DNA of 52,467 nt from a virus (IMGVR_UViG_3300017741_002088:1-52467), one strand, 5' to 3'. Shown: positions 1 to 52,467, counted from the first letter of the stretch. The notes: a model not told the origin generated them from the letters alone. Numbers and translations are program-made.

Positions 1-2745
1 GATCCGAAACAGGTCGAAGTTCAAATTATGAGGGATGGTACATCAGATGGTTCTGGTAACTTTACTGTCAGTATCCCATCGGCATATGCACTTGATAATG
101 CAGGCGACTGGTTATTCTTTGTAGATTCTGCTGGAGGTGGATTGATTGACAACTCTACTCTTAGCGGTTTGACAACAGGTTCAAATACAACAACTGTAAC
201 AGGATTACCAGCAAACAGACCAGTCAAAGCATATGTTTATGGTTCTACCACATCCCCTGTCGTTCGTGCAAAAACTATTGTATCAAATGTGACAGTGACT
301 ACTTCTGTTGTAACAGATCCTATCAGCGGTGAAAAATATATTCCGCTGGGTAAACCAGATATTAGATCGATTGCTGAAGTTCGCGATACGAATTCAACTG
401 GTGCAGATATTGCTTACAAATTCAAACTTGACAATGGCCAACGTGATAACTTCTATGGTCATGGTCGTATGGTACTCAATTCTGGTCAATCAGCACCTTC
501 GGGTAATGTTTTTGTAAAGTTTGATCACTTCAATCATGGTAATGGTAACTTCTTTTCAGCAAGTTCTTACACAGGGGTTGTAAACTACAAAGACATTCCA
601 TATCATGTTCTTAAAACAGGTTTGCGGATTAATCTACGAGACGTCCTTGATTTCCGTCCAGTTATGGATACAACAATCAATACGTTCAGCGAAGCAGATA
701 TTGCATATCTTCCGCAACCATCTGACTTAATTACGTCGGATAATACTTACTATCTCCCTCGTACATATAAACTTGTGATCGATAAAGACGCTAATCTAAA
801 CGTGATCAATGGTGATGCTGGGTTCTATCCGGAACCACCACAAAAATCAGAAAACACTTTACCACTTTACAACTTCCGACTTGGTGGTAACACATTAGAC
901 GACTCTGATGTATCAGTTCAAAAAATTGAACATCGTCGTTATACAATGCAAGATATTGGACATCTAGAAAAAAGAATTAACAATCTAGAAGAATTAACTT
1001 CTTTGTCTATGCTCGAACTAGGAACTAATAACTTTGAAGTCTTAGATAGCGCAGGATTGAATCGTACTAAGTCAGGATTCTTTGTAGATAACTTTACATC
1101 ACACATCTTATCAGCAACAGAGCAAAATGATTATCGCGCTGCTATTGATCCGACTGTTGGGTTGATTCGTCCTACATTTACTGATGACAACATTCGTATG
1201 ATTTTTGACTCTGATAATTCAACAAGTGTTGTGAGAAAAGGTGATAACATCTACGTCGCGCACACTGAAGTTGATTTCATGAACAACCCATTTGCCACAA
1301 AGAAAGTAAAGATTAATCCTTTCACCTCATCAGTATATGAGGGTTCACTTGTTCTTTCACCTGCTTCTGATGAATGGCATGATAAGAACGTTGGAAGTAG
1401 AACAGTCATTGATGGTGGTTCAAAACTTAGTACAGTTCGTGCATACAACTGGGATAACTGGTCATGGAACTGGGGCGGTAAAGACATCGAAGACTTGAAA
1501 GTCGGTGATGGTACTAACACAATCAGTAAGACTAGCGGAAGAACTACTACTAATTCTGTGAACAAAATTGTATCAGAATCAGTTGTTGAAGAAGTTATTG
1601 GCGAAAGAATTTTGCAAATTGCGATCCTACCATTTATTAGGTCTAGAATCGTAAGAATTAAGGCAAGAGGACTTCGCCCGAATTCAAATGTGTTCTTATT
1701 CATGGACAATAAAAACATGAAAGACTTTGTTCGTGAACAAGCATTTAAGAGATATTCAAAGGACACTAAAGATTTTGGTAACACATTACGAGGAAAAACT
1801 TCCCACAAAGATGGTTCTACTGCATTGACAACAGACGCATCTGGTAAAGTTGATATTTCATTCCAAGTTCCTAACAATAGCACGTTCAGGTTTAGAGCGG
1901 GAACTAAAGAAATAAAACTTATGGATATTGATGTGAACCGTGAAGAATTGTCAGGTACGATTGCAAGAGCAATATATACTGCTCAAGGTTTCCTCGATAC
2001 CGTTCATCAAGATATTAGGTCTACTCGTGTTCTTGAAGTAGAGGGTAAAAAATCAACAACAGTTCGTGCAGTGTCATATAATAATGACGGTGGCGGTGAT
2101 GGTGGCGGCACAGGCGGTGGCGTCAGTTGGTTGAATCCTGATGAACATGAAGAAAAATTTGGTACAAGAAATAATAACAGACAAGGTCATAACCTTGGAG
2201 CGATGGGACTTGGTTGGCCAGATGAACTATCTCACCCACCAACCCAAAGTGATCCTGGTCCATCTTCTAAAATTATTTGTACAGCACTTCACCAAATGGG
2301 TCTACTCCCATATGATATCTTTGCCGCTGACCAAGAGTATGGTCGGAAACTTGCAGTAACAGATCCTGATATTGTTGAAGGATATCATTTGTGGGCACAA
2401 ATTGTAGTAGATTGGATGAATGGCGTTGAAGATGCACCAAATATTATGCCATGGGTCAAAGATGATGCTGAACGTATCGAACGCACAAGTCAGTGGGCAG
2501 TAAGATGGGCGCAAGCAATCGCAACTCCATGGGCAGTTCAAATGGCACATGAAATGGGAATACGAGAAAAAGGCAGCAAACTTGGTAAATTCTTGATGAT
2601 GGTTGGTTATCCAATATCTAAGATGGTTGCTAAAACAGGCAAACCGAATCCAGTAAGCATGCTTGCAATATTTGCAGTTCTTCGCTTAATCGTCTCCCTC
2701 AATATGAAGAATAAATACATCGATAATACAGTGGAGCAGAAATAA
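1..2745 (+). CDS. Large virion structural protein (DUF4815-like), 5'-truncated, with a distinct C-terminal domain
   Basis: Frame open from base 1; motifs DNGQRDNFY, LRDVLDFRP, RRYTMQDIG..LEKRI..LE, KSGFFVDNF, INPF, PFIRSR typical of the large T4-like marine phage structural protein. Confidence 0.75.
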   Translation, partial: DPKQVEVQIMRDGTSDGSGNFTVSIPSAYALDNAGDWLFFVDSAGGGLIDNSTLSGLTTGSNTTTVTGLPANRPVKAYVYGSTTSPVVRAKTIVSNVTVTTSVVTDPISGEKYIPLGKPDIRSIAEVRDTNSTGADIAYKFKLDNGQRDNFYGHGRMVLNSGQSAPSGNVFVKFDHFNHGNGNFFSASSYTGVVNYKDIPYHVLKTGLRINLRDVLDFRPVMDTTINTFSEADIAYLPQPSDLITSDNTYYLPRTYKLVIDKDANLNVINGDAGFYPEPPQKSENTLPLYNFRLGGNTLDDSDVSVQKIEHRRYTMQDIGHLEKRINNLEELTSLSMLELGTNNFEVLDSAGLNRTKSGFFVDNFTSHILSATEQNDYRAAIDPTVGLIRPTFTDDNIRMIFDSDNSTSVVRKGDNIYVAHTEVDFMNNPFATKKVKINPFTSSVYEGSLVLSPASDEWHDKNVGSRTVIDGGSKLSTVRAYNWDNWSWNWGGKDIEDLKVGDGTNTISKTSGRTTTNSVNKIVSESVVEEVIGERILQIAILPFIRSRIVRIKARGLRPNSNVFLFMDNKNMKDFVREQAFKRYSKDTKDFGNTLRGKTSHKDGSTALTTDASGKVDISFQVPNNSTFRFRAGTKEIKLMDIDVNREELSGTIARAIYTAQGFLDTVHQDIRSTRVLEVEGKKSTTVRAVSYNNDGGGDGGGTGGGVSWLNPDEHEEKFGTRNNNRQGHNLGAMGLGWPDELSHPPTQSDPGPSSKIICTALHQMGLLPYDIFAADQEYGRKLAVTDPDIVEGYHLWAQIVVDWMNGVEDAPNIMPWVKDDAERIERTSQWAVRWAQAIATPWAVQMAHEMGIREKGSKLGKFLMMVGYPISKMVAKTGKPNPVSMLAIFAVLRLIVSLNMKNKYIDNTVEQK

Positions 2746-4334: not shown

Positions 4335-4335
4335 A

Positions 4336-4536: not shown

Positions 4537-5351
4537 TGGCCAGAAAAGTCAACGTTCAAAATTCAAATACGATCCAAGCATGGATGCAAAAAATCAACCA
4601 GATGCAAGAGTATCTGGGTGACATCGATGATTTGAAAGACTCAACGTTTTCTAATAATGATCAAAGTGCAGTTGATGCACTAGATTTTTTGGGACGACTC
4701 ATACCTAAAATCAATCAGCAATTATTTAATGCGTCCGCACCGATTACAATAACTGCAAACATATTAGCAGATTCTGCTGTATTTGATTTTATGACTCTAA
4801 AGAGTTTGTTGAACCATGATTCCGCGATGCCAGATAGTAGTGTCCATGGAATGTATTTTCTTGGTGACTCCCCTGGAACTGCAGAATTTGATTTCAATGG
4901 AGATAGTATCTCGTTTGGTAATGCTACTGTAACAAATAATCTTACATTCGATTCATTTGGCCAATCTGTTATAATCAATAAACTGACTGTCATGGACAGT
5001 GGGTTGATTGGTAGAATAACTGTTGATTCTTCTTCTACGATTGGTTTCGGCAACGTGACAATGATTGCTAGTGATGGATTAGAAGTAGACAGCGCATTAG
5101 TTTTAAATAAACTTAACCTTACAAACTTGCTTTGCGATAGCGTTCATGATACAGGGTTTAATGCAAACAAAGCATCAATTCCCAATCTAGTCCTAGATAG
5201 TGGTGTTGGAACAATAACATTTTCAGATAGTTCTTCATTAGTATTTACTGGACTGAAATCATTTTTATTAACAGATTCACTGGGGTATGATTCAGTCGGA
5301 CAAGGTGATTCTGGCGTTATATATTTTGCAGCGCATCAATTATTGATATAA
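4536..5351 (+). CDS. Asp-Ser-rich putative virion/fibre protein
   Basis: 271 aa; translationally coupled; N-terminus resembles the next gene. Confidence 0.55.
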   Translation: MARKVNVQNSNTIQAWMQKINQMQEYLGDIDDLKDSTFSNNDQSAVDALDFLGRLIPKINQQLFNASAPITITANILADSAVFDFMTLKSLLNHDSAMPDSSVHGMYFLGDSPGTAEFDFNGDSISFGNATVTNNLTFDSFGQSVIINKLTVMDSGLIGRITVDSSSTIGFGNVTMIASDGLEVDSALVLNKLNLTNLLCDSVHDTGFNANKASIPNLVLDSGVGTITFSDSSSLVFTGLKSFLLTDSLGYDSVGQGDSGVIYFAAHQLLI

Positions 5352-6033: not shown

Positions 6034-6983
6034 TGACACTTTATAGACCTATAGTATCAGACGGAAGCAGAAGAATAAAAGAGTGTACATCTTCAACACT
6101 CAATGCTATGTACAAACGCATAGCATATCTTTATGTTCAAAATCCTTCTGTTATTTTAAGTGTTGTCGCTTCTGGTGGTAATATATCACCAACTATGACA
6201 GACACAAGACTTAAATCTGGTACAGCGAAAAGAAACACTTCAGGGAACTGGCCACAGGTGACTTCATTTCCTAGTCAGGCGCAAACAGGTGAACCGCAAA
6301 CTGTAACTCTTACATATGATAAAATTAATCAGACAACATCAAGTCATGCGACAGTACCAACATATAATTTAAAACCTGTTCGAACAGATGCATCAGGTGT
6401 TAGAGAAATGACTTTCACTGATGTGATCGATTCATTTATTAGTCCAGTTGTGAGCAATATTGTTACTGGTACAACTGACACTTTGGCAGGAGGTGCATAC
6501 TTTATTAGCACAAACACCTCAATATCGAATTGTACAAATTTAGGAACAGTTTATACAGACACTCGAGCAAACGTTTCTGGTTATCTGGCGTCTAACATAG
6601 GTGGGAATAATTCAGTTCAGGATGTTTTCAATTCAACAAACTATCAGTTATTCAGGAATGATGGTGCAGTCGTTGCATATAGAACACCATTGATTATTGA
6701 TGGCACTTCCGGATTGAGACATATGACATTTGCTGAGTTTGATGCATTTTTCCAACCTTTGATTCAAGCATACATTTTTAATCAAGGCGGGAACACACTC
6801 AGATACAATGTAGATGGTAATGGCGTCACAAAAGGAACAGCAATAGTCAATAATGTTCTTACAGGCGGTAATGGAAACTATACTACATACAAAGCATCAG
6901 CAAACGACTATCGTGCGCAAGAATTTCCTAACGGATCAAACTCAGTTGCTAACACATACAGATTAAAGGTGGAAAGAACTTAA
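6033..6983 (+). CDS. Putative virion structural protein
   Basis: 316 aa, T/S/N/G-rich; internal repeated motif (R.MTF..); structural gene context. Confidence 0.5.
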   Translation: MTLYRPIVSDGSRRIKECTSSTLNAMYKRIAYLYVQNPSVILSVVASGGNISPTMTDTRLKSGTAKRNTSGNWPQVTSFPSQAQTGEPQTVTLTYDKINQTTSSHATVPTYNLKPVRTDASGVREMTFTDVIDSFISPVVSNIVTGTTDTLAGGAYFISTNTSISNCTNLGTVYTDTRANVSGYLASNIGGNNSVQDVFNSTNYQLFRNDGAVVAYRTPLIIDGTSGLRHMTFAEFDAFFQPLIQAYIFNQGGNTLRYNVDGNGVTKGTAIVNNVLTGGNGNYTTYKASANDYRAQEFPNGSNSVANTYRLKVERT

Positions 6984-9431: not shown

Positions 9432-10329
9432 ACCACTCCTTGATGTAGTCAAATCTTTTATTTACTACGTGTACAAACTCACTTCCTTTCGCTACATAAG
9501 GGAATCTTTCATTGAGTATGAAATGTTGCTTTCGTTCAAGTTTGTTGAGTTGAACTTCTTTTTGTTGCATCTTATAACTATACAATGTCTCGTTATCATA
9601 CCCAAACAGTGACTGAATGTACGGTGGCCAACCACCATTTACTTCGGTTACAAGTTCTTTCATCGTAGATAAGTCAAGATCAAATTCTCCAAAGTAATCT
9701 AACTTTTTTATTTGCTCAGAACTTGCTCCAACAATTCCTGTGTTGTATACATCATTATCACCAGAGAAACCCTCGTCAAGAAGCAATGCTCTTGCGTTCC
9801 ACCATTTTGCTCGTGGACTTCTTATAGAATTGGTCCTACCTTTCTCATCATACTTTTTACGCATTTCAGCAAAGAATGCTGGTTCTAATCCTTCAAGGTA
9901 ATTTTTAGGATCTTTCTCATGATTGACTCTACAAAGTATTCCTGAATCAAAATCCCACTCATCGAAAACATTACATTTTGTTAACGGAACCACATCAAAA
10001 TCCAAGTAAAGGATCTGATCATAAGATTTAGAGTATTCTACCATCAACCAATGTTTGTAAAAATTGATTATATCATACTCTGATATCCAAGGTTTATCTT
10101 CAAACCAGTCTTTAAAATGAGCATAGTGAGTACCATACCCAACAAACCTATATTCAACTCCGATGGACTCAGCATACTTTTTTTGCACGCTGATTAACCA
10201 GTCCTGATATTTAAGCATTAGGTTTGTAGTTTCTTTTGTTTTGAAATTACTCCACTCATCATCAGAATGATCTTTATCTATCGTAGAGTCTGAAATATTG
10301 ATGTATGTTGAATAAATTAATCGTTTCAT
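9412..10329 (-). CDS. Glycosyltransferase-like protein (GT-A fold), paralogue of the neighbouring gene
   Basis: LYLDFDV, NTGIV, DNE, HVVNK; same MKR.IYS-type start as 8661-9431. Confidence 0.7.
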   Translation of the reverse strand: MKRLIYSTYINISDSTIDKDHSDDEWSNFKTKETTNLMLKYQDWLISVQKKYAESIGVEYRFVGYGTHYAHFKDWFEDKPWISEYDIINFYKHWLMVEYSKSYDQILYLDFDVVPLTKCNVFDEWDFDSGILCRVNHEKDPKNYLEGLEPAFFAEMRKKYDEKGRTNSIRSPRAKWWNARALLLDEGFSGDNDVYNTGIVGASSEQIKKLDYFGEFDLDLSTMKELVTEVNGGWPPYIQSLFGYDNETLYSYKMQQKEVQLNKLERKQHFILNERFPYVAKGSEFVHVVNKRFDYIKEWYEKNSI

Positions 10330-10967
10330 CGAGCAATCACCATGTACCGATCCCACTCTCCTATTTTCAATGTGCCTTTATAAAGTATTTTCATCTTCGG
10401 CAATGTTTCTATGAAATGATCAACAGATGTGTGACAGTTAATATGACTGTCTACATCTACCATATTATTAGACTGCAAAGCAACAATCATATTTTCATTT
10501 TTCATCGACAAGACGCTAAAAAGATCTTCGTGGTCTATGTGTTCACATGCTGTACAAATTACGATTTTTTTCTCGTGGTTTCTTTTCTTATCTTCAAATA
10601 ATTCTAATCCATCCATAGCATCTTCATATTTTATGTTACTATGAACTCTGAGTTTTTTAGCAATCTTAATACAGACATCATCCAACTCGAAATTTATTAT
10701 CTCTTTGTCCCACCCATCCTCTACTAAAATGTGTGACATCAACCCATACCAAGACCCAATAATTAAAATCGAATTGTGATTATCTTCATAAAAAGGTTTG
10801 AGTTCTCTAGACAACCATTCTTTACAAGCGATCTGGCCAGTTGAGAAAGAATCAGTAATGTCTTTGATACGGAATAAATCGTAGTCAGGATCATATGCAG
10901 ATTTTTCAAATATGAATCTGAATATGTTCATGATCTTATCAAAGTATAATGGTGTCATGTATTTCAT
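10326..10967 (-). CDS. Class I SAM-dependent methyltransferase-like protein (start uncertain)
   Basis: LIIGSWYG motif I, FELD, TACEH, LQSNN, HINC. Confidence 0.65.
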   Translation of the reverse strand: MKYMTPLYFDKIMNIFRFIFEKSAYDPDYDLFRIKDITDSFSTGQIACKEWLSRELKPFYEDNHNSILIIGSWYGLMSHILVEDGWDKEIINFELDDVCIKIAKKLRVHSNIKYEDAMDGLELFEDKKRNHEKKIVICTACEHIDHEDLFSVLSMKNENMIVALQSNNMVDVDSHINCHTSVDHFIETLPKMKILYKGTLKIGEWDRYMVIAR

Positions 10968-40311: not shown

Positions 40312-40907
40312 TGTGCGCAGTCCTTGGGGTCTCGGGAAAGATCGACAGTCAAGTGATCCGTCGACTTTTTCTCGAGTCCCAGATTCGTGGTAGGCATGCC
40401 ACAGGAGTATCGTACTACAAGGAAGGCAAAGTTCATACGATAAAAGAACCTTTGCCTGCCGAGAAGTTTTTAGAGAAACACGACCCAAAAGATTGGTACG
40501 AGGGAGATGAAATTGTTATGATTGGACACTGTAGATATTCTACATCTGATCTTGAATTCAATCAACCCATCGCTAATGATCAATCAAGCATTGTACATAA
40601 CGGTGTGATCTCACAAGAGATGCCTGACCGTTGGAAACAACTGTACAATATTGATTGTGAAACTCGTAACGATACGGAACTTCTTTTCCATAGTAGTCCA
40701 GAAGATTGGCCAGATGCATCTATTGCTGCAGTTTTTCTTACAGGAAAAGAAATGACGTGGACTCGTAATGGAAAACGACCTTTATGGTTTACTTCTCTTG
40801 AAGAATGTGATATAATAACTTCTACAAATGACATTGCAGTTCGTGCTGGTTTATCGAACTCAGTCAAGACATATTATGACGGAAACGATCTACAAAATGA
40901 TTATTGA
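40311..40907 (+). CDS. Class II (Ntn) glutamine amidotransferase domain protein
   Basis: N-terminal MC, RG.HATG, GHCRYST, NQP, HNGVI, ND(T)E, RPL. Confidence 0.85.
   Translation: MCAVLGVSGKIDSQVIRRLFLESQIRGRHATGVSYYKEGKVHTIKEPLPAEKFLEKHDPKDWYEGDEIVMIGHCRYSTSDLEFNQPIANDQSSIVHNGVISQEMPDRWKQLYNIDCETRNDTELLFHSSPEDWPDASIAAVFLTGKEMTWTRNGKRPLWFTSLEECDIITSTNDIAVRAGLSNSVKTYYDGNDLQNDY
40788..40816 (+). promoter_or_regulatory. Internal promoter within the amidotransferase gene
   Basis: TTTACT-N17-TATAAT. Confidence 0.65.
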
Positions 40908-41553
40908 GAAAATTGATCAACAAGAACTTGAGGATACTCTTGCTCGTAAATTAGAAGAGAATGATGGCGCCAAACTAAACAACATGAATGGTTTGTATCA
41001 TTTGAAACAAACATGTTATGAGTGGGGCATGGAAAACAACTGGCAATCTCCCAGAGCGCAGCAGTGGGTAGCACGCAATGATGAAGGTACTATCATGGGC
41101 GGCACATTTATCACTGTCACCTCGCGCAAACCAGTTCATGTCACCTTTCGCCACATCTTTCTATTTGAAGAAGCAAGAGGTCATGGTGTCGCAGAGACGC
41201 TGTACAATTGGCGGTATCGCTGGGTCATTGAAAACACCCAGTGTAGACGTGTCAGATTGTTTGCGAATAAACCTGCGACACCATGGCATAATAAATGCGG
41301 AATGCGTTTCTTAGGGATGAATAAAGCAAAACAACCTTTTACATATCTGCCTTTATTCGATTGCCCATCTATGCGTGACTATGGAGCAAAACTAGATTCA
41401 ATTGGTCCACGAGCAGCAATGGATATGGTAGAACCTGAAGTCACTAAGCAAGTCGAAAAGATTGTGAGTAAAGGTGGTCGTTGGTACACTCAAGAAGAAT
41501 TCAAGAGTGAATGGGGATCTGAACTAGAAGAAAGGTTTGAACCCTTTGCTTGA
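40897..41553 (+). CDS. GNAT-like acyltransferase
   Basis: EEARGHGVA..L acetyl-CoA motif A; N..A..W..KCGM motif B. Confidence 0.65.
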   Translation: MIIEKIDQQELEDTLARKLEENDGAKLNNMNGLYHLKQTCYEWGMENNWQSPRAQQWVARNDEGTIMGGTFITVTSRKPVHVTFRHIFLFEEARGHGVAETLYNWRYRWVIENTQCRRVRLFANKPATPWHNKCGMRFLGMNKAKQPFTYLPLFDCPSMRDYGAKLDSIGPRAAMDMVEPEVTKQVEKIVSKGGRWYTQEEFKSEWGSELEERFEPFA

Positions 41554-42538
41554 TCGTCGCGAATTGTTTGTTCGATGGTATGGTTGGTCTCTTGAATACA
41601 AAGATGTTGATCCTGCAGTTTGGTTGACCAATTACCTGCATAAACGATACGAACATAATGAAGAACAACGATACTGGTTGGCGTGGTTATATGGAAACAC
41701 ATATTACCTGCCAACAAGTTGGGTCTTGATGAATGAGTTTCCTGACTTTGAACTTGCGACTTATGATAGAATAAAAGACTGGAACGACCACAACTATACG
41801 CGACTTCGATATCAAACTGACACCAAATGGTCAAAAGGTCATTTGCCTGAGATGTTTAAATCCTATAAAGAGATGATCGGTAACAAGACCCAAAAGGAAT
41901 TCTTTGATGGGTTTGATGGTTTCGATGATCTCTTTGATCATGTAAAAACTAAACAATTCAAATTCGGTAGATACTCAACTTGGTTTTATTTGCAACATCT
42001 AGAGGGAACCTGCGGCATGCGCCACATCAACCCGAAGACTTTGTTGTTAAATGATCGTAGTGGAAGTCGAAGTCATCGAAATGGATTGTGTATGGCATTG
42101 AAAAAAGATGACTGGTATGATAAAAAATTAGACAAAAGTCAGATAGATATATTAGAAGGAATGGGTGCTGATATCTTAACCGAGATGTCAGATCGTTTTC
42201 CGAAGCATAAGAATGAAGTGAATGCATTTACTATGGAAACTGCACTTTGTTCTTTTAAGAAGATCTTTCGTAAACATCACGGAAGATATCTCGGATACTA
42301 TCTTGATCGCCAAGCAGAGGAGATCACTAAAGTGTCTAAAGATGGTTGGAACGGTATTGAGTGGAATGTACTTTGGCAAGCAAGGTCAGAATCACTCGAT
42401 AAAAGATTAACATCTAAGGGTGGCATTATCAAAGACAAATTTGATACATTTGTCGATACTGGATCACTAGATAGGATAGAATGGATGTTCACAGATATCC
42501 AGAAAAGTCCTTCACCTTTAGACAATTTTATGATATAA
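41537..42538 (+). CDS. Amino acid:DNA transferase-like protein (aGPT-Pplase2 family, HhH glycosylase-like fold)
   Basis: D.DP, EQRYW.AWLYG.TY, FGRYS.WFYLQ, ET.LC.FKK, RY.GYY.DR; genomic context. Confidence 0.7.
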   Translation: MNPLLDRRELFVRWYGWSLEYKDVDPAVWLTNYLHKRYEHNEEQRYWLAWLYGNTYYLPTSWVLMNEFPDFELATYDRIKDWNDHNYTRLRYQTDTKWSKGHLPEMFKSYKEMIGNKTQKEFFDGFDGFDDLFDHVKTKQFKFGRYSTWFYLQHLEGTCGMRHINPKTLLLNDRSGSRSHRNGLCMALKKDDWYDKKLDKSQIDILEGMGADILTEMSDRFPKHKNEVNAFTMETALCSFKKIFRKHHGRYLGYYLDRQAEEITKVSKDGWNGIEWNVLWQARSESLDKRLTSKGGIIKDKFDTFVDTGSLDRIEWMFTDIQKSPSPLDNFMI

Positions 42539-42545: not shown

Positions 42546-43094
42546 ATGAATAAATTACTCGCAATAATTGGTGCTCCAGGAACTGGTAAGACAACCCTCG
42601 TTCGTGAGTGGATGAAGTCACGAAAATGGTCAAAGGATAAACCAGTTGATCTTCTCGACACTCATGTATCGGACGATATTCGGTTGCTTGGTAAATATGA
42701 GCATGATTCTCTCTTCAGCGGTACAGATAAACTGTCTATGGCAGTACAACCGAAAGCAGTAGAATATCTAGACAACCCATCCCCTGTAACTATATTTGAA
42801 GGCGATCGACTGACTTCGATTAAATTCTTTGAAGCAGCGCAGTCAAAAGGATTTGAAATTAAAATCATTCAACTCACTGTTCCCGATGAAGTTAGAGAAC
42901 AACGTTACAAAGAACGTGGTTCAGAACAAAACCCAACTTGGTTGAATGGCAGATTGACAAAAGTTAAAAATGTTTCAAATGCCTTTTCCGGAAACCCTCT
43001 GTTCGATGAACCGAGCATAGTAGAGGAGTGTGAGCATAAAACTCCTGAAGATACAAAATCAATCATAACAATCATTGAGGATTTTATAAAATGA
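42546..43094 (+). CDS. P-loop nucleotide kinase of the type found in base-hypermodification loci
   Basis: GAPGTGKTT, LGKY, F.GTD.LSM, EGDRL, R..ERGS.Q. Confidence 0.75.
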   Translation: MNKLLAIIGAPGTGKTTLVREWMKSRKWSKDKPVDLLDTHVSDDIRLLGKYEHDSLFSGTDKLSMAVQPKAVEYLDNPSPVTIFEGDRLTSIKFFEAAQSKGFEIKIIQLTVPDEVREQRYKERGSEQNPTWLNGRLTKVKNVSNAFSGNPLFDEPSIVEECEHKTPEDTKSIITIIEDFIK

Positions 43095-43900
43095 AGATAG
43101 CGATTATTGGACATGGGTTTGTTGGCAAAGCAGTAGATTATGGATTCTCCCATCCGGAGATCCAAAAGATTATTATCGATCCAATTTATGGGTCTAAGAT
43201 TGATAAACGAATTAAAAACTGCCAGTTTATATTTGTTAGTGTACCAACTCCTATGGGAGATGATGGTACGATTGATGACTCTATCCTTCGTGAAGTAATT
43301 AAAGACATCGAGAAGTATAGTCACAACTCGATTATCATTGTCAAAAGCACAGTCATCCCTGAAGTGATCGCTAACCTATCAGATCGTATCGTTTACAATC
43401 CAGAGTTTCTCACAGAGAAAAGCGCAAACGAACAGTTTGTAAATCCTGTGTTTCATATTCTAGGAGGGCATCCTGCTGACTGTACGATGGTCGCAGACTT
43501 CTACGATAAGTATTCGCTATGTAATCACACAGATTTTTATTGTATGACAATTGAAGAAGCATCCTTCACTAAGTATGCCATCAATTGTTTTCTAGCAACT
43601 AAGGTTCTTTTCTTTAATCAGTTGTATGATGCTGCATTAAAAGAAAACAATGTAAACTTCAGCGTTGTCGCAAAAACCGTTGGAGCAGACCCACGCATAA
43701 CACCATCCCATACAAAGGTGCCAGGATTTGATGGTAAACAGGGTTTCGGTGGTGCGTGTTTCCCCAAAGATGTGTCAGCATTTCTTGCTGCATATCCAGA
43801 GATGGGAATCCTTGATTTCGTAAAGAAAACTAATAATGACTATCGGAATCAATATGAAAAGGATTCTCGTGAAATAGAACAAAACATAGATTTTGCTTAA
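43091..43900 (+). CDS. UDP-glucose/GDP-mannose dehydrogenase family protein
   Basis: GHGFVG, VPTP, KST, NPEFL, K...N.FLA.K, GFGGACFPKD. Confidence 0.9.
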   Translation: MKIAIIGHGFVGKAVDYGFSHPEIQKIIIDPIYGSKIDKRIKNCQFIFVSVPTPMGDDGTIDDSILREVIKDIEKYSHNSIIIVKSTVIPEVIANLSDRIVYNPEFLTEKSANEQFVNPVFHILGGHPADCTMVADFYDKYSLCNHTDFYCMTIEEASFTKYAINCFLATKVLFFNQLYDAALKENNVNFSVVAKTVGADPRITPSHTKVPGFDGKQGFGGACFPKDVSAFLAAYPEMGILDFVKKTNNDYRNQYEKDSREIEQNIDFA

Positions 43901-43912
43901 TGGAGGCATTAA

Positions 43913-44074
43913 ATGTCAGCAACTCAAGAATGGATTAAAGAGCAGTTCACTAAAGATTCACCAAGAATCATTACTGAATATTCGTTACAAAAACAAGTCG
44001 ACGATCTTTTAACTCGAGTAAAACAACTTGAAACTGATATGGCGTATAGTGTGAAACCAGAGGAAAGAACTTGA
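43913..44074 (+). CDS. Small hypothetical coiled-coil protein (53 aa, not in ORF track)
   Basis: GGAGG RBS; MSATQEWIKEQF...; overlaps next start. Confidence 0.6.
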   Translation: MSATQEWIKEQFTKDSPRIITEYSLQKQVDDLLTRVKQLETDMAYSVKPEERT

Positions 44075-44817
44075 GTATTATAATCACGGGATCCGATGGG
44101 TTTATCGGATCCCATTTAACTAAGCATTTCGAAGCAAAAGACATTGAAGTTATACCGTGGGACATCAAGAATGGTGGCACCCAAGATATTCATAACCTGT
44201 TCATTCCCCCAGATGTCACCTTTGTTATTCACCTTGCAGCAATCGCTGACGTTCGAAGAAGTATTCGTGAACCAGATATCTATTGGGAACAAAATGTTCT
44301 AGGAACTAAACATGTTCAAGAGAAATGTGCACAAAAAGATATTCCTTTGTTATATGCTTCATCCTCTTGCGTCCATGCGTGGGGCAAAAGTCCATACGGT
44401 ATGTCAAAGAAAGTAAATGAATTGACTGCGCAACCTGAACAAATTGGAATGAGGTTTACTACAGTCTATGGTGATGGTGCGCGAGACTCTATGTTCATAG
44501 GTAAGTTACAAAGGGGTGAGATAGAATATGTGACAACACACATTCGTGACTTCATCCATGTTTCCGATGTGATTCAAGCGATTGAATTGTTGATGGATAA
44601 CTATGCAACGCTTGAAGAATATTCTTATAACATAGGAACAGGAGTTGGTAATGAAGTTCGTAAACTCGGTGAACTAAATAATTTTTATGGACCAGTCAAA
44701 TCAGGTCATGAATGCGAAGCACTTGATAACACTGCAGACAATTCAGCAATAAGAAAACTAGGATGGAAACAAACAGTTTTTGTTGACGAATATATCAATA
44801 AAGGGTTTACTTTATAG
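44071..44817 (+). CDS. NAD-dependent epimerase/dehydratase
   Basis: TGSDGFIG, HLAA, ASSS, YGMSK, RDFIHV.D. Confidence 0.9.
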   Translation: MSIIITGSDGFIGSHLTKHFEAKDIEVIPWDIKNGGTQDIHNLFIPPDVTFVIHLAAIADVRRSIREPDIYWEQNVLGTKHVQEKCAQKDIPLLYASSSCVHAWGKSPYGMSKKVNELTAQPEQIGMRFTTVYGDGARDSMFIGKLQRGEIEYVTTHIRDFIHVSDVIQAIELLMDNYATLEEYSYNIGTGVGNEVRKLGELNNFYGPVKSGHECEALDNTADNSAIRKLGWKQTVFVDEYINKGFTL

Positions 44818-44861: not shown

Positions 44862-45905
44862 ATGAGCATAATGGATAAACTGAAGAAAAACAGTAAGGTT
44901 TCGCACACCTCTGTTTTATCTGAATCAAAATTCTTTAACGAGAAAGATATGGTTCCAACAAACGTGCCTATGATGAATGTTGCATTGTCAGGTTCGCTTG
45001 ACGGAGGACTTGCTCCTGGACTAACAGTCCTTGCTGGTCCATCTAAACATTTCAAAACATCATTCGCCTTAATTATGGCAGCAGCATATCTTCGTAAGTA
45101 TGAAGATTCTGTAATTCTTTTTTATGATTCTGAGTTTGGTTCACCACAATCTTACTTTGAACAATATGGTATTGACACTGATCGTGTACTTCATACTCCA
45201 ATCACAAACGTTGAAGAATTGAAGTTTGATCTTATTGGTCAACTTGAAGGTCTTGAACGAAATGATAAAGTTGTCGTTGTCATCGACTCGGTCGGTAACT
45301 TAGCATCTAAAAAAGAACTCGAGGATGCAATCAATGAAAAATCAGTAGCAGATATGTCACGTGCAAAAGCACTTAAAGGTCTGTTCCGGATGAGTACTCC
45401 ATATCTTAATATGAAGAACATTCCATTGATTGCTGTTAATCACACATACAAAGAGATTGGACTGTTCCCTAAAGATATTGTCTCAGGTGGAACAGGTATC
45501 TACTACTCAGCGGATAACATCTGGATTCTTGGTAGACAGCAAGATAAAAAGAGTGGTGAGATTAAGGGATATCACTTTGTAATCAACGTGGAGAAATCGC
45601 GTTATGTCAAAGAAAAGTCTAAAATTCCTATTTCTGTTTCTTGGGATGGTGGGGTCTCTACTCATAGTGGTCTCCTCGATGTCGCTTTGGCAGGTAATTA
45701 TGTCGCTAAACCTAGCAATGGTTGGTATTGCCGTGTCGATCGAGATACTGGAGAACTTCTCGACCCAAAGGTTCGGGAATCAGATACACTCGAACCATCG
45801 TTCTGGGAACCAATCTTGGAGGGGACAGATTTCAAGAACTATGTCAACGAGAAATTCTCTATCGGTGGAACTATATCTAATGAACTCGAACTTGAAGAAG
45901 CATGA
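44862..45905 (+). CDS. uvsX: RecA-like recombinase UvsX
   Basis: AGPSKHFKT, YDSEFG, DSVGNLAS, NHTY, SGGTG..YSAD, KSR. Confidence 0.95.
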   Translation: MSIMDKLKKNSKVSHTSVLSESKFFNEKDMVPTNVPMMNVALSGSLDGGLAPGLTVLAGPSKHFKTSFALIMAAAYLRKYEDSVILFYDSEFGSPQSYFEQYGIDTDRVLHTPITNVEELKFDLIGQLEGLERNDKVVVVIDSVGNLASKKELEDAINEKSVADMSRAKALKGLFRMSTPYLNMKNIPLIAVNHTYKEIGLFPKDIVSGGTGIYYSADNIWILGRQQDKKSGEIKGYHFVINVEKSRYVKEKSKIPISVSWDGGVSTHSGLLDVALAGNYVAKPSNGWYCRVDRDTGELLDPKVRESDTLEPSFWEPILEGTDFKNYVNEKFSIGGTISNELELEEA

Positions 45906-49303: not shown

Positions 49304-49437
49304 TGAATAAAATTTTGAGAAGACTTGGATTGAAAGACGACTATGGTTATTGCGATATGTCCATTGTTGGGTTTATTGTTATATGGTCGTTTTTTCTTTA
49401 TGGTGTTTATATTGCGATCGGAGACTTAATTAAATGA
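49303..49437 (+). CDS. Small membrane protein (44 aa, not in ORF track)
   Basis: MNKILRRLGLKDDYGYCD followed by a hydrophobic helix; coupled at both ends. Confidence 0.55.
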   Translation: MNKILRRLGLKDDYGYCDMSIVGFIVIWSFFLYGVYIAIGDLIK

Positions 49438-50099
49438 ATGTTAGATTAATCAGTTATTCACAAACAGCGGAGAACCTACATGTCGGTGAAGATATCCAAG
49501 AACTCATTGCGTATTGTGCCCGTGTCTCGAACCCCTCGAACCAAACTAACCAAGAAACGTCCGAACGTTTATTATCCTATCTCGCAAAACACAAGCACTG
49601 GTCGCCTTTCGAGATGGTGTCTGCTTGCTTAGAGATTGAAACGACTCGTGATATTGCTCGTCAAATCCTTAGGCATCGTTCGTTTTCATTTCAGGAGTTT
49701 AGTCAGAGATATGCTAATCCTGTAGAAGATTTAGATTATGTTATGAGGGAAGCGCGACTACAAGATACGAAAAATCGTCAAAACAGTATTGTTACTGATG
49801 ATGCTGATTTACAACTAGAATGGTATAAGCAACAAGCAGAAGTTCAACTTGCCTCTAAAAAAGCATATCAATGGGCGATTGAAAATGGTATTGCTAAAGA
49901 GCAAGCACGTGCGGTGTTGCCCGAAGGTATGATGGGATCACGACTTTATATGAATGGAACCATCAGGTCTTGGATTCATTTTATTGAATTGCGCAGTGCT
50001 AATGGCACACAAAAAGAATGTCAGGATGTTGCCATTGCTTGCGCAAAAGCGATTACTGAGATATTCCCTCTTGCTCAAAAGTTCTTGGAGACAGAATAA
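49434..50099 (+). CDS. thyX: Flavin-dependent thymidylate synthase ThyX
   Basis: ARVS, H.SPFE, RHRSFSFQEFSQRY, E.AR.VLP, LR....Q.E. Confidence 0.95.
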   Translation: MNVRLISYSQTAENLHVGEDIQELIAYCARVSNPSNQTNQETSERLLSYLAKHKHWSPFEMVSACLEIETTRDIARQILRHRSFSFQEFSQRYANPVEDLDYVMREARLQDTKNRQNSIVTDDADLQLEWYKQQAEVQLASKKAYQWAIENGIAKEQARAVLPEGMMGSRLYMNGTIRSWIHFIELRSANGTQKECQDVAIACAKAITEIFPLAQKFLETE

Positions 50100-51779: not shown

Positions 51780-51787
51780 TATTTATA
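51780..51787 (-). promoter_or_regulatory. Late promoter TATAAATA on the minus strand
   Basis: tatttata on + strand upstream of 51229-51708. Confidence 0.6.
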
Positions 51788-51825
51788 TAGATAATGATTT
51801 AAATTAACTAAAGGAGACTCTCAAT

Positions 51826-52467
51826 ATGAGATTTTTAATCGCTGCAGCAATTGCAGTAATGTCTTGGGTCAGCGTCGCTCAGGCAGAACCACTCAAAGTT
51901 GGATTCGTTTATGTTGGTCCAGTCGGTGATCATGGTTGGACATATATGCATGATATCGGTCGTCAAGCAGCAGTAGAAAAGTTTGGTGACTCTATCGAAA
52001 CAATCTTTGTTGAATCAGTACCAGAAGGTCCAGATGCAGAACGTGTAATGCGTGATATGATTTCGCAGGGTGCGGATATGATCTTTACGACATCGTTTGG
52101 TTATATGGAGCAAACTCTACGAGTCGCAAAAAATAATCCTGATGTGATTTTTGAGCATGCAACTGGTTATAAAACTGCACCAAACGTATCGGTCTATTCA
52201 TCACGTTTCTATGAAGGTCGTTATGTACAAGGTGTAATTGCTGGTCATATGTCAAAGACAGGCAAAGCAGGTTACATTGCATCGTTTCCGATTCCAGAAG
52301 TGATTCGTGGTATCAATGCTTTTTATCTTGGTGCGACAGCAGTAAATCCTGCGTTTGATATTGACGTTGTATGGGTCAATACTTGGTATGATCCTGGCAA
52401 AGAAGCAGATGCTGCGAAAGTATTGATTGCTGGTGGTGCAGATATCATCACGCAACATACTGATTCA
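51826..52467 (+). CDS. BMP-family ABC transporter substrate-binding protein (nucleoside/purine type), 3'-truncated, not in ORF track
   Basis: AAGGAG RBS; signal peptide; KVGFVYVGPVGDHGWTY.HD, TTSFGYM, HATGY, RFYEGRY, PIPEVIRGINAF, W.NTWYDP.KE, QHTDS. Confidence 0.9.
   Translation, partial: MRFLIAAAIAVMSWVSVAQAEPLKVGFVYVGPVGDHGWTYMHDIGRQAAVEKFGDSIETIFVESVPEGPDAERVMRDMISQGADMIFTTSFGYMEQTLRVAKNNPDVIFEHATGYKTAPNVSVYSSRFYEGRYVQGVIAGHMSKTGKAGYIASFPIPEVIRGINAFYLGATAVNPAFDIDVVWVNTWYDPGKEADAAKVLIAGGADIITQHTDS

What the first reader, a model, noticed from the sequence alone, without database searches (positions are those of the whole stretch)
1..52467. Near-total absence of RGCY across the window, with TGGCCA as the only exception
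Seen: reading every line I found no AGCT, AGCC or GGCT, although RGCR (AGCA, GGCA, AGCG, GGCG) and YGCY (TGCT, TGCC, CGCT) are everywhere. GGCC occurs nine times, always as TGGCCA (435, 2215, 4537, 4958, 6249, 9625, 10834, 24779, 40707). Codon choice bends around the motif: Glu/Lys/Gln-Ala use GCA/GCG and Trp-Leu uses TGG TTR. Four TGGCCA sites encode Trp-Pro, but others (e.g. AAT GGC CAA at 435) were avoidable, so TGGCCA looks tolerated. Known: RGCY is the CviJI specificity, TGGCCA is the BalI/MscI site, and characterised phage TET systems act on GpC-methylated DNA. Inference: intense selection from a host RGCY restriction system, a phage nuclease that destroys RGCY-containing host DNA while sparing the phage, or a GpC-directed methylation/modification pathway. 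TGGCCA may be protected or not recognised.
Basis: partly seen in the sequence, partly recalled or inferred. Interest (0 to 1): 0.9.

Follow-up and report, generated by a model that had tools for sequence, protein, structure and literature searches.

The report
Phage genome purged of RGCY, CCGG
A marine T4-like phage has removed every RGCY and CCGG site from its DNA by silent changes, except copies flanked by T on both strands, and this goes together with a gene set for chemically modifying thymine, which suggests the phage deletes the cutting sites that its DNA modification cannot shield.

Summary
AGCT, AGCC and GGCT are each 0. GGCC occurs 9 times, always as TGGCCA. A codon-preserving null expects 284.5±12.4 RGCY. 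The removal is synonymous, extends into non-coding DNA, and the sequence recurs in runs from 12 studies, so it is selection and not an artefact.

The window is about 30% of an uncultured marine T4-like phage. Among relatives sharing 67-83% DNA polymerase identity, RGCY is either normal or depleted at least 5-fold, and depletion arose several times. Every contig with the window's TET/JBP gene is depleted, and only these show the rule that surviving GGCC/CCGG carry a 5' T.

The TET gene is followed by a glutamine amidotransferase, a P-loop kinase and an amino-acid:DNA-transferase-like gene. No C5-methyltransferase was found.

Best reading (about 0.45): nuclease-driven site avoidance, with T-flanked GC-only sites shielded by TS-directed thymidine hypermodification. 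The nuclease is unidentified.

Known kind of feature (restriction-site avoidance), new variant. Interest 0.75.

The parts
1..52467 (.). Whole window: fragment (CheckV estimate 30% complete) of an uncultured marine T4-like phage, with no AGCT, AGCC or GGCT, and with no GGCC or CCGG outside TGGCCA/TCCGGA
   Evidence: annotation; completeness
435..440 (.). TGGCCA (AAT GGC CAA, Asn-Gly-Gln; avoidable)
2215..2220 (.). TGGCCA (TGG CCA, Trp-Pro; GGCC unavoidable)
4537..4542 (.). TGGCCA (ATG GCC AGA, Met-Ala-Arg; avoidable)
4958..4963 (.). TGGCCA (TTT GGC CAA, Phe-Gly-Gln; avoidable)
6249..6254 (.). TGGCCA (Trp-Pro)
9625..9630 (.). TGGCCA (Trp-Pro in a minus-strand ORF)
10834..10839 (.). TGGCCA (Thr-Gly-Gln in a minus-strand ORF; avoidable)
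24779..24784 (.). TGGCCA (GGT GGC CAT, Gly-Gly-His; avoidable)
40707..40712 (.). TGGCCA (Trp-Pro, inside the GATase gene)
828..833 (.). TCCGGA (Tyr-Pro-Glu; avoidable)
6708..6713 (.). TCCGGA (Ser-Gly)
13033..13038 (.). TCCGGA (Ser-Gly)
28196..28201 (.). TCCGGA (Ser-Gly)
33374..33379 (.). TCCGGA (Tyr-Pro-Asp)
39921..39926 (.). TCCGGA (Leu-Pro-Glu, inside the TET gene)
42987..42992 (.). TCCGGA (Ser-Gly, inside the kinase gene)
43153..43158 (.). TCCGGA (His-Pro-Glu)
45385..45390 (.). TCCGGA (Phe-Arg-Met)
38956..40311 (+). TET/JBP 2OG-Fe(II) dioxygenase (5-methylpyrimidine dioxygenase), 451 aa. H292, D294 and H346 are invariant in 6 of 6 aligned homologues.
   Evidence: Pfam PF12851 E 2.4e-18, 66.3 bits against a cut-off of 34.9; alignment
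40311..40907 (+). Class-II glutamine amidotransferase domain protein
   Evidence: PF13522 E 1.5e-9; purF-like N-terminus
40828..41553 (+). GNAT acetyltransferase
   Evidence: PF00583 E 3.5e-7
41537..42538 (+). Amino-acid:DNA-transferase-like protein (AADT / aGPT-Pplase kind)
   Evidence: No Pfam hit at E<=0.1. ESM Atlas feature score 0.97 to clusters carrying PF18724 in 72-96% of members, with the query's recognition value below the usual level. Clusters by BLASTP with ORFs in the same position in L083, L086, L087 and L117.
42546..43094 (+). P-loop nucleotide kinase (candidate 5-hydroxymethyl-dU DNA kinase)
   Evidence: PF18751 Ploopntkinase3 E 3.3e-19
43091..44817 (+). UDP-glucose/GDP-mannose dehydrogenase-like protein and NAD-dependent epimerase (sugar nucleotide tailoring). 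Also present in relatives without TET.
38218..38898 (+). GIY-YIG-like ORF directly upstream of TET; the only nuclease-like candidate found, probably a free-standing homing-type endonuclease
   Evidence: Atlas leads scoring 0.87-0.89 (leads only); invariant Y..Y, Y-G, R43, H47, E, N pattern; 35-38% homologues in non-purged relatives
49434..50099 (+). ThyX thymidylate synthase: the phage makes ordinary dTMP, so any thymine modification would be post-replicative
   Evidence: PF02511 E 2.6e-43

Best explanation
The window belongs to a marine T4-like phage lineage whose genome has been cleared, by selection on individual sites, of the targets of one or more sequence-specific nucleases: RGCY (the CviJI specificity) and CCGG. 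The clearing used synonymous codons and codon-pair choice, and it extends to intergenic DNA. GGCC and CCGG survive only where a T precedes the tetramer on both strands (TGGCCA, TCCGGA). I propose that the phage oxidises thymine in its DNA after replication with its TET/JBP dioxygenase, then elaborates the 5-hydroxymethyluracil with the adjacent kinase, amino-acid:DNA transferase, amidotransferase and acetyltransferase. I further propose that this modification falls preferentially on T followed by G or C, and that a bulky modified T on each flank blocks the nuclease. Sites that cannot be shielded this way have been deleted: any RGCY with A in first position (which gives a T-A flank), and any GGCC/CCGG without both T flanks. 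Shown here: the purge, its synonymous nature, the T-flank rule, its restriction to TET-bearing relatives, and the gene content of the cassette. Inferred: that thymine is actually modified, that the modification prefers T followed by G or C in this phage, that it blocks cleavage, and that a nuclease (host, competitor or phage) is the selective agent.
For: Purge against a codon-preserving null: RGCY 9 against 284.5 +/- 12.4; CCGG 9 against 40.0 +/- 5.3. Non-coding DNA holds 0 RGCY against 42.6.

Synonymous removal: codon-context tables. At 85 RGCY sites in 13 orthologous genes of the non-purged relative G005, both residues are identical in the window at 55 (65%), against a background of 56%.

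Not one assembly's quirk: 20 of 24 listed runs, from 12 studies, hold 62-99% of the sampled words. Independent IMG/VR contigs show the same pattern.

T-flank rule in the window: 18 of 18 GGCC/CCGG are T..A flanked, and TGGCCA and TCCGGA are at or above expectation (9 against 5.8 and 9 against 5.7).

T-flank rule in relatives: in 11 further TET-bearing contigs, 61 residual GGCC/CCGG sites split 38 both flanks, 23 one flank, 0 none (my sum). Pooled over 21 TET+ contigs (360 kb), GGCC splits 30/33/12 against 7/31/37 expected, and CCGG 48/63/13 against 11/52/61. Over 25 TET- contigs (587 kb), GGCC splits 106/245/189 against 55/235/250, and CCGG 54/156/220 against 43/186/201. GATC, TGCA, CATG and TCGA show no such skew.

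A purged lineage without TET has no exemption: G001 (57 kb) has TGGCCA 0 and TCCGGA 0, each 6.9 expected.

The flank must be T followed by G or C on both strands: TAGCTA is 0 against 6.6, and TAGCCA/TGGCTA 0 against 9.1.

The association is repeated on the DNA polymerase tree: the TET lineages window-L002-L003-L006-L090, L041, L056 and C48C1 are all depleted, some beside undepleted sisters. The more distant TET+ contigs L115-L123 are all GGCC-poor, and in L120/L121 3 of 3 GGCC are TGGCCA.

Cassette.

Literature: PMC13229309 (sections 5, 8, 12 read) says most phage TET-like enzymes are sequence-selective thymine dioxygenases, and those lacking a neighbouring C5-methyltransferase are linked to GATases, P-loop kinases and AADTs. 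PMC6449724 (passages read) says that in three thymidine-hypermodified phages the restriction-resistant sites carry TG/TC dinucleotides, that the kinase very likely prefers TS, and that a flanking tG may contribute to the resistance to some enzymes with GC-only sites.
Against: No modification has been measured; the chemistry is inferred from gene content alone.

AGCT flanked by G or C on both sides would carry a T followed by G or C inside the site on both strands, yet AGCT is 0. The shield must therefore fail at the degenerate Y position of an RGCY enzyme, or that T is not modified. This is an added assumption. Residual AGCT sites in partly purged TET+ relatives show no clear S-flank excess over TET- relatives.

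The window's AADT assignment rests on a language-model match, not on an HMM hit.

No ParB-like activator was recognised.

No nuclease with RGCY or CCGG specificity was found in the window or in relatives, and the host is unknown.

PMC8919816 (passages read) says modified motifs of viral genomes were rarely shared with prokaryotic genomes. This does not favour a common host RGCY restriction-modification system.

Relatives with a glycosyltransferase cassette instead of kinase and AADT also follow the flank rule, so the T-G/T-C preference would have to come from the dioxygenase there.

S-CBWM1 carries a distant TET homologue (30% identity) and is not depleted.

Only about 30% of the genome is in hand, so hexamer methyltransferases cannot be excluded.
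Confidence: 0.45

Rival explanations
1. The purge is nuclease-driven as above, but TGGCCA and TCCGGA are spared because hexamer-specific methyltransferases (MscI/BalI-type and BspEI/AccIII-type), encoded by the host or by the unseen 70% of the phage genome, methylate exactly these sites and so block the tetramer-specific nucleases.
For: The exemption in the window is exactly two palindromic hexamers. PMC8919816 (passage read) lists TGGCCA as an m5C-modified motif found in marine metagenome-assembled genomes. Only about 30% of the genome is in hand.
Against: No PF00145 or PF01555 gene is in the window. It needs two separate methyltransferases that happen to share T..A flanks. In TET-bearing relatives many surviving sites have a T flank on one strand only (TGGCCG, CCCGGA and similar; 23 of 61), which a palindromic hexamer methyltransferase would not cover. 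GCGC and CGCG also show a T-flank skew in the window (no-flank class 9 against 32.7 and 8 against 32.7). The rule tracks the TET gene across lineages.
Confidence: 0.15
2. The nuclease is the phage's own, or that of co-infecting relatives. An RGCY/CCGG-cutting enzyme would shred host or competitor DNA as chlorovirus CviJI does, and the phage is immune because it lacks the sites instead of methylating them.
For: RGCY cutting is known to me only from chloroviruses, where the enzyme is virus-encoded (recalled). RGCY is the commonest modified motif in marine myovirus-like genomes (9 viral genomes), and viral motifs were rarely shared with prokaryotic genomes (PMC8919816, passages read). A GIY-YIG-like ORF lies beside TET. 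PMC13229309 (section 12) reports endonucleases in 17% of TET-like neighbourhoods.
Against: No gene is shared by the purged contigs and missing from the non-purged ones, except one 70-aa ORF. The ORFs directly upstream of TET in four lineages are unrelated to each other (hhalign probability below 1%). Homologues of the GIY-YIG-like ORF occur in non-purged relatives. A genome with hundreds of sites could not acquire such a nuclease without prior protection.
Confidence: 0.15
3. One reading: a GpC-directed C5-methyltransferase plus TET pathway hypermodifies cytosine at GCY, and RGCY (GCY on both strands) is purged because doubly modified sites are harmful or attract modification-dependent nucleases.
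For: Characterised phage C5-methyltransferase/TET pairs act at GpC[C/T] (PMC8256090, passages read). RGCY is the only context with GCY on both strands, and YGCY is enriched (488 against 338). Depletion tracks the TET gene.
Against: No C5-methyltransferase was found in the window or in G001-G003. The neighbours are thymidine-type enzymes. The model does not explain the CCGG purge or TCCGGA. If GCCA escaped methylation, TGGCC followed by C, G or T would be only hemi-modified like the tolerated YGCY, yet it is absent (0 against 26.6 non-T..A GGCC expected). Purged lineages without TET exist (G001, G003, G004).
Confidence: 0.07
4. The pattern is not biological selection. It is a sequencing or assembly artefact at modified bases, or a mutational decay such as 5-methylcytosine deamination.
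For: Modified bases can cause systematic miscalls on some platforms (general knowledge). Methylated motifs decay by deamination.
Against: No single miscall rule gives only synonymous outcomes in all three reading frames. Residues at sites that are RGCY in a relative are conserved at or above background. Near-identical sequence occurs in runs of 12 studies, and the pattern recurs in diverged contigs. Deamination products at R|GCY would change Ala to Val or Thr, yet the observed replacements are GCA/GCG. Zero sites out of about 285 expected is beyond any mutational equilibrium.
Confidence: 0.03

Closest known systems
Restriction-site (short palindrome) avoidance in phage genomes
   Same: Short palindromic targets typical of Type II enzymes are far below a codon-aware expectation, were removed synonymously, and differ between related lineages.
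   Different: The depth of the purge (0 of about 252 expected AGCT/AGCC/GGCT). A degenerate 4-mer not known to me as a bacterial specificity. A flank-dependent exemption shared by two different tetramers and tied to a DNA-modification cassette.
CviJI / M.CviJI restriction-modification of chloroviruses (RG^CY)
   Same: The avoided set is exactly the four RGCY tetramers.
   Different: CviJI specificity is recalled, not tested here. No homologue could be searched for. No C5-methyltransferase is in the window. Chloroviruses protect themselves by methylation, this phage by lacking the sites. TGGCCA is spared.
Post-replicative thymidine hypermodification: phage thymine dioxygenases of the TET/JBP superfamily with P-loop kinase, AADT and GATase (PMC13229309), and the 5hmdU-derived bases of phages M6, ViI and phi W-14 (PMC6449724)
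   Same: Same gene kinds in the same order of chemistry (dioxygenase, kinase, transferase). No adjacent C5-methyltransferase. ThyX is present, so T is incorporated first. The published TS preference and flank effect match the T-G/T-C flank rule.
   Different: No ParB-like activator was recognised. The base has not been identified. A genome-wide purge that complements the modification was not in the passages and sections I read, and four of my five full-text searches found nothing on it.
Phage C5-methyltransferase/TET cytosine hypermodification at GpC (PMC8256090)
   Same: TET/JBP domain enzyme with tailoring enzymes downstream. The avoided motif contains GpC followed by Y.
   Different: The defining partner methyltransferase is absent from the window and the neighbours are thymidine-type. 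C5-methyltransferases occur instead in non-purged relatives that lack TET.

Membership tests
Restriction-site avoidance | Motif is a short (degenerate) palindrome and is depleted beyond a codon- and composition-preserving null | tested here: met
   RGCY 9 against 284.5 +/- 12.4; CCGG 9 against 40.0 +/- 5.3. These are the strongest negative z-scores among all 4-mers.
Restriction-site avoidance | Removal by synonymous change, with proteins conserved | tested here: met
Restriction-site avoidance | A cognate nuclease exists in the host or its community | not testable with these tools
   The host is unknown. No nuclease sequence of that specificity was available to search with. PMC8919816 reports RGCY modification in viral genomes, with viral motifs rarely shared by prokaryotic genomes.
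CviJI-type RGCY restriction-modification system | RGCY-specific C5-methyltransferase gene in the genome | tested here: not met
   PF00145 gave 0 matches in the window (30% of the genome) and in G001, G002, G003 and G005.
CviJI-type RGCY restriction-modification system | RGCY-specific endonuclease gene | not tested
   No profile or reference sequence was at hand. The gene-content comparison found no candidate.
Phage C5-MT/TET cytosine hypermodification (GpC) | TET/JBP dioxygenase with iron ligands | tested here: met
   PF12851 66.3 bits; H292, D294 and H346 invariant in 6 of 6 sequences.
Phage C5-MT/TET cytosine hypermodification (GpC) | Functionally linked, usually adjacent, C5-cytosine methyltransferase | tested here: not met
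   None in 52 kb, and none among the ORFs flanking TET in 19 TET+ loci.
Phage thymine-dioxygenase / thymidine hypermodification cassette | TET/JBP enzyme without a neighbouring C5-MT | tested here: met
Phage thymine-dioxygenase / thymidine hypermodification cassette | P-loop nucleotide (5hmdU DNA) kinase | tested here: met
   PF18751 E 3.3e-19 at 42546-43094. Orthologues sit beside TET in L083, L086, L087, L115 and L116. Kinase activity was not tested.
Phage thymine-dioxygenase / thymidine hypermodification cassette | Amino-acid:DNA transferase (PF18724) | tested here: inconclusive
   The window ORF 41537-42538 has no Pfam hit at E<=0.1, but its Atlas feature score is 0.97 to PF18724 clusters. 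In relative L115 the ORF after TET reaches PF18724 at 27.3 bits against a cut-off of 26.2.
Phage thymine-dioxygenase / thymidine hypermodification cassette | ParB-like activator (ParB-dependent subclass only) | tested here: not met
   No ParB family was found among the window ORFs scanned. The ORF upstream of TET looks GIY-YIG-like. The enzyme may belong to the ParB-independent kind.
Phage thymine-dioxygenase / thymidine hypermodification cassette | Thymine in DNA is actually oxidised and elaborated | not testable with these tools
   Only assembled contigs of public runs were available, with no raw long reads.

The most novel reading that the evidence does not exclude
Sequence-selective, post-replicative thymidine hypermodification and genome-wide motif deletion are two halves of one defence. 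The phage keeps only those GC-only nuclease targets that a modified T on each flank can shield, and has deleted every target that cannot be shielded. This would imply three things. First, a CviJI-like RGCY nuclease is at large among marine bacteria or their phages. Second, related phages answer it either by cytosine methylation (the C5-methyltransferase beside uvsX in non-purged relatives) or by purging. Third, a thymine dioxygenase and a C5-methyltransferase are mutually exclusive in one genome, perhaps because the dioxygenase would also oxidise 5-methylcytosine.
Probability: 0.3. Interest if true: 0.85.

Novelty: new variant of a known kind. Interest (0 to 1): 0.75.

Why it matters
Two recent papers leave open why phages use site-selective, post-replicative hypermodification that cannot cover the whole genome. 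PMC13229309 (section 12) calls the rationale a mystery. The 2023 preprint 10.1101/2023.12.21.572611 (passages read) doubts that it gives broad protection. If the reading here holds, the genome sequence has co-evolved with the modification, so that together they leave no exposed target. This can be tested on native DNA with commercial enzymes.

The finding also points to an RGCY-specific nuclease outside chloroviruses. It gives a sequence-only signature (GGCC/CCGG retained only with T flanks) for spotting thymidine-modifying phages in metagenomes, and for predicting the sequence context of their modification.

Tried and rejected
- Megablast of a 4.8-kb gene against cultured phages found no match.
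- I first suspected that the 'DNA methyltransferase' next to the polymerase of phage C48C1 and of many purged relatives was the RGCY methyltransferase. It is a D12-class (Dam-like) adenine methyltransferase, so I dropped that idea. Its co-occurrence with the purge follows lineage.
- Base-calling artefact and deamination decay were rejected.
- A TET-linked nuclease was not supported. The ORFs directly upstream of TET in four lineages are unrelated, and the gene-content comparison of 4 purged and 4 non-purged contigs gave no purge-specific gene except one 70-aa ORF.
- The specificity of the C5-methyltransferase of non-purged relatives could not be inferred. There was no PDB relative at E<=0.001 and only a weak superfamily hit in NCBIfam.
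- Population variants: only 40 of 597 differences were listed. Applying them creates one AGCC, at 32072, in three runs. It lies in a short, high-depth contig only about 91% identical over hsp20, most likely another phage, so the test says little. All runs were assembled contigs, so base modification could not be read.
- Test of an S-flank excess at residual AGCT in partly purged TET+ relatives: 27/59/33 against 19/57/44 expected, similar to TET- relatives, so not discriminating.
- GCGC/CGCG flank skews are partly shared by purged TET- lineages and are used only as supporting evidence.
- No structure prediction, complex prediction, large homology search or RNA search was run.
- Supplementary files of the papers were not opened. 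The motif tables of PMC8919816 and the datasets of PMC13229309 may name the viral genomes with RGCY modification and the enzymes closest to this one.

Full report
WHAT THE WINDOW IS

The 52,467-nt window is the whole record held for this genome. CheckV rates it about 30% complete. It encodes a T4-like replication and recombination module:
- UvsY, UvsW, gp47/gp46-like nuclease subunits, the gp45 clamp, gp44/gp62 clamp loader and RegA
- family-B DNA polymerase, UvsX and a gp41-like helicase
- Hsp20, plastocyanin, MazG, ThyX and large structural proteins

The closest cultured or named relatives are phage C48C1 (polymerase 51% identical, filed under Kyanoviridae) and marine cyanomyoviruses (about 46-47%). 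IMG/VR holds many closer uncultured relatives, with 67-83% polymerase identity. Near-identical sequence is present in 20 of the 24 listed public runs, from 12 studies of marine, seawater or viral metagenomes.

THE OBSERVATION

- AGCT, AGCC and GGCT are each 0. GGCC occurs 9 times, always inside TGGCCA, at the stated coordinates.
- Four of the nine sites are Trp-Pro, the one dipeptide that cannot avoid GGCC. The other five were avoidable.
- Shuffling synonymous codons within each of 51 ORFs (300 shuffles) gives 284.5 +/- 12.4 RGCY (minimum 247) against 9 observed.
- The same null gives 26.6 GGCC outside TGGCCA (minimum 15) against 0, and 5.8 +/- 2.4 TGGCCA against 9.
- The 4,728 nt outside my ORFs hold no RGCY either, against 42.6 expected from composition.
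- Among all 4-mers, AGCT and AGCC/GGCT have by far the most negative z-scores.

REAL SELECTION, NOT AN ARTEFACT

The motif is removed differently in each reading frame, and always silently.
- Ala after a purine-ending codon is GCA/GCG: GCT 0, GCC 1, GCA 269, GCG 64. After a pyrimidine-ending codon it is 281/70/263/72.
- AGC and GGC are not followed by a pyrimidine (0 and 4 cases).
- Codons ending AG or GG are followed by TTR for Leu and never by CTN or CCN, except TGG CCA.

No single miscall rule does this. In 13 genes aligned to the non-purged relative G005, 85 codon pairs carry RGCY in the relative. In 55 of them (65%) both residues are identical in the window, against a background of 56%. 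Deamination of a methylated C would give Val or Thr codons, not GCR. The recurrence in 12 studies and in diverged contigs rules out a single assembly's quirk.

CCGG behaves as GGCC does. It has 9 sites against 40.0 +/- 5.3 expected, all nine as TCCGGA (5.7 expected). So two different tetramers survive only as T-tetramer-A.

The T..A flank does not rescue the A-containing members of RGCY. TAGCTA is 0 against 6.6, and TAGCCA/TGGCTA 0 against 9.1. The surviving sites are therefore those where T is followed by G or C on both strands.

GCGC and CGCG are not depleted overall, but copies with no T flank are scarce (9 and 8 against 32.7 expected from composition), and TGCGCA is enriched (15 against 7.2; maximum 14 in 300 shuffles). 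TACGTA, CTTAAG and ACCTGG are also absent against 7.3, 7.6 and 12.1 expected.

RELATIVES

I examined 93 IMG/VR loci plus C48C1.
- RGCY observed/expected is bimodal: about 0.5-1.5, or 0.3 and below.
- On a polymerase tree (83 sequences, FastTree, rooted on C48C1) the depleted loci form one large clade and at least two separate small ones (L033/L041 and L055/L056), each next to undepleted sisters. The outgroup C48C1 is itself depleted (0.29).
- Every locus that carries the window's TET/JBP gene is depleted (0.00-0.18; C48C1 0.29). No undepleted locus carries it.
- Purged lineages without TET also exist. G001 (57 kb) and G004 (37 kb) hold 0 AGCT/AGCC/GGCT and 4 and 3 GGCC. G003 (62.6 kb) is at about 0.2, with CCGG 2 against 82.
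- A profile search for TET found eight further distinct contigs, down to 45% identity. All are GGCC-poor, and in L120/L121 3 of 3 GGCC are TGGCCA. L115, L116 and L120-L123 are also poor in AGCT/AGCC/GGCT, while L117-L119 are not.
- L091-L093 (44-46% G+C; only the TET gene aligns between them at DNA level, about 78% identity) hold 0, 1 and 1 GGCC and 0, 2 and 5 CCGG, against 17-27 expected. Eight of these 9 sites are T..A flanked, and AGCT/AGCC/GGCT are normal.
- Among cultured TET-bearing phages, Nonlabens phage P12024L has GGCC 0 and CCGG 2 against 36 each. Pelagibacter phage HTVC112P has GGCC 6 and CCGG 0 against 17. S-CBWM1 (TET 30% identical) is not depleted.

THE T-FLANK RULE FOLLOWS THE TET GENE

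- In the window and 11 further TET-bearing contigs, 79 residual GGCC/CCGG sites split 56 with T flanks on both strands, 23 on one strand, and 0 on neither (my sum).
- Pooled over 21 TET+ contigs (360 kb, now including C48C1 and L115-L123), GGCC splits 30/33/12 against 7/31/37 expected from base frequencies, and CCGG 48/63/13 against 11/52/61.
- Over 25 TET- contigs (587 kb), GGCC splits 106/245/189 against 55/235/250, and CCGG 54/156/220 against 43/186/201.
- All 12 no-flank GGCC sites and 6 of the 13 no-flank CCGG sites come from C48C1, the least purged.
- GATC, TGCA, CATG and TCGA show no such skew in either set. Non-palindromic GC runs such as GCGG/CCGC do not either.
- In the purged, TET-less G001 the hexamers TGGCCA and TCCGGA are both 0 against 6.9 each. 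The exemption is therefore not a property of the purge itself.

WHAT THE TET CASSETTE IS

The gene at 38956-40311 has the TET/JBP oxygenase domain (66.3 bits, cut-off 34.9), with H292, D294 and H346 invariant in six homologues. The genes that follow it are:
- a glutamine amidotransferase
- a GNAT acetyltransferase
- a 333-aa protein whose language-model features match amino-acid:DNA-transferase clusters at 0.97 (a lead, not an HMM hit)
- a P-loop nucleotide kinase (PF18751)
- sugar-nucleotide enzymes

In relatives, the same dioxygenase (71-80% identical) is followed by other tailoring sets:
- kinase plus an AADT that passes Pfam's threshold (L115)
- a TET-associated glycosyltransferase with nucleotidyltransferase and phosphatase (L090)
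- an FkbM methyltransferase
- an inositol-phosphate-synthase-like protein
- UDP-galactopyranose mutase

No C5- or N4/N6-type methyltransferase (PF00145, PF01555) is in the window. The methyltransferase next to the polymerase in many purged relatives is Dam-like.

PMC13229309 (sections 5, 8 and 12 read) states the following. Phage TET-like enzymes without a neighbouring C5-methyltransferase are inferred to be thymine dioxygenases. One clade of them is linked to GATases, P-loop kinases and AADTs. Two purified enzymes prefer NTC and NTG. Only 6% of such pathways co-occur with a C5-methyltransferase. The window also encodes ThyX, so thymine is made normally and would be modified in the polymer.

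MECHANISM PROPOSED

One or more nucleases that cut RGCY and CCGG select against every exposed site. The phage's thymidine hypermodification, directed to T followed by G or C, shields a GC-only tetramer when both flanks carry it. Everything else has been deleted.

PMC6449724 (passages read) gives experimental precedent. In phages M6, ViI and phi W-14, about half or more of the restriction-resistant sites contain TG/TC. The authors infer that the 5hmdU DNA kinase prefers TS. They also note that a flanking T (tGCCGGC) may contribute to resistance to enzymes with GC-only sites.

This reading explains several things:
- why the only spared member of RGCY is the one with G first on both strands
- why CCGG obeys the same rule
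- why one-flank sites are tolerated in less strictly purged relatives
- why the rule is confined to TET-bearing genomes

The chemistry, its sequence preference in this phage, and the blocking of cleavage are all inferred.

WHO CUTS?

This is unknown.
- PMC8919816 (passages read) reports RGCY, called as m4C, as the commonest modified motif in marine viral genomes (9 of them, myovirus-like). It lists TGGCCA (m5C) among new motifs, and says viral motifs were rarely shared with prokaryotic genomes. RGCY is thus a contested motif among marine myoviruses, but that paper gives no sign of a common host RGCY system.
- In five non-purged relatives (L049, L063, L067, L070, L078; RGCY observed/expected 0.90-1.08), a C5-methyltransferase lies just upstream of uvsX, in the region where the window has its cassette. 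None was found in purged loci. This fits 'methylate or purge', but its specificity is untested, and other non-purged contigs lack it (G005, G007, G009, G010).
- I found no candidate nuclease tied to the purge or to TET. The GIY-YIG-like ORF at 38218-38898 has homologues in non-purged relatives.

WEAK POINTS

- AGCT with G or C on both sides should carry a modifiable T inside the site, yet it is absent. The shield must therefore fail at the degenerate position of an RGCY enzyme, which is an added assumption, and one search does not help decide it.
- The purge of AGCT/AGCC/GGCT also occurs without TET, and is missing from some TET+ groups. RGCY avoidance and the GGCC/CCGG flank rule are therefore separable, and may have different agents.
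- Hexamer methyltransferases in the unseen 70% of the genome remain possible.

COMPARISON AND NOVELTY

Restriction-site avoidance is a known kind of feature. What is new is:
- its completeness for a degenerate tetramer otherwise tied to chlorovirus CviJI (recalled)
- the twin exemption
- the lineage-wide link to a thymidine-type TET cassette

Four of my five full-text searches (terms 'RGCY'+'phage'; 'cyanophage'+'restriction site avoidance'; 'GGCC'+'CCGG'+'underrepresented'+'phage'+'thymidine hypermodification'; 'CviJI'+'cyanophage') found no paper describing such a purge. The library is limited to open-access papers and preprints, and supplements were not read. I file this as a new variant of a known kind, with interest 0.75.

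Noticed in passing
window 32459-32888: The plastocyanin gene is missing, by a clean 428-nt skip, from contigs of two other studies (runs X9 and X19) that otherwise match the window. The gene is therefore variable within this phage population.
   Followed up: no
window, whole: Other absent hexamers against the codon-shuffle null: TACGTA 0 against 7.3, CTTAAG 0 against 7.6, ACCTGG/CCAGGT 0 against 12.1. TGCGCA is enriched (15 against 7.2). TACGTA is also rare in G002 (1 of 108 ACGT sites) and in G005 (4 of 156).
   Followed up: partly
G001 (L095-L097) and G004 (L105-L106): In this purged, TET-less sister lineage, GGWCC survives mostly as AGGWCCT (12 of 18 and 11 of 14 sites), GCWGC is almost absent (1 and 0), and TGCGCA is 0. 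This is a different flank rule (A..T) in a lineage that carries a Dam-like methyltransferase, plus in G001 an N6/N4-type one (G001:42917-43744).
   Followed up: partly
L070:19786-20979, L067:19445-20641, L049:11862-13058, L063:9501-10691, L078:12054-12911: A roughly 399-aa C5-cytosine methyltransferase (PF00145, 60-62 bits) lies just upstream of uvsX, only in relatives with normal RGCY content. Its specificity is unknown.
   Followed up: partly
window 38218-38898: An ORF directly upstream of TET has an invariant Y..Y / Y-G / R-x3-H / E / N pattern and weak GIY-YIG leads. It is probably a free-standing homing-type endonuclease. Homologues (35-38% identical) occur in non-purged relatives L009, L010 and L079-L081.
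   Followed up: partly
window 7487-11490 (minus strand): A cluster embedded among structural genes and read on the opposite strand: a twitch-domain radical SAM protein (NF033640, 184 bits), a weak GT8-like glycosyltransferase and three ORFs with no family. The contigs compared hold no clear counterpart (at most 25-28% matches in two). Its role is unknown (virion or DNA modification?).
   Followed up: no
L083, L085, L090, L115 (downstream of TET): The same dioxygenase (75-79% identical) is followed by different tailoring sets in different relatives: kinase plus AADT; TET-associated glycosyltransferase with nucleotidyltransferase/choline-kinase-like protein and HAD phosphatase; FkbM methyltransferase with an inositol-1-phosphate-synthase-like protein; UDP-galactopyranose mutase. 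This looks like a swap-in, swap-out hypermodification locus between primase and uvsX.
   Followed up: partly
L091-L093, L117-L119, L113 (P12024L): In TET-bearing groups that keep AGCT, copies of AGCT with no G/C flank are about half as frequent as expected (58 against 112). This might mean that AGCT is tolerated there when its own T is in a modifiable context.
   Followed up: no
window 38081-38165: Contigs of runs X9 and X19 replace this 83-nt stretch, just upstream of the GIY-YIG-like ORF, with 32 other letters. This is a small variable segment.
   Followed up: no
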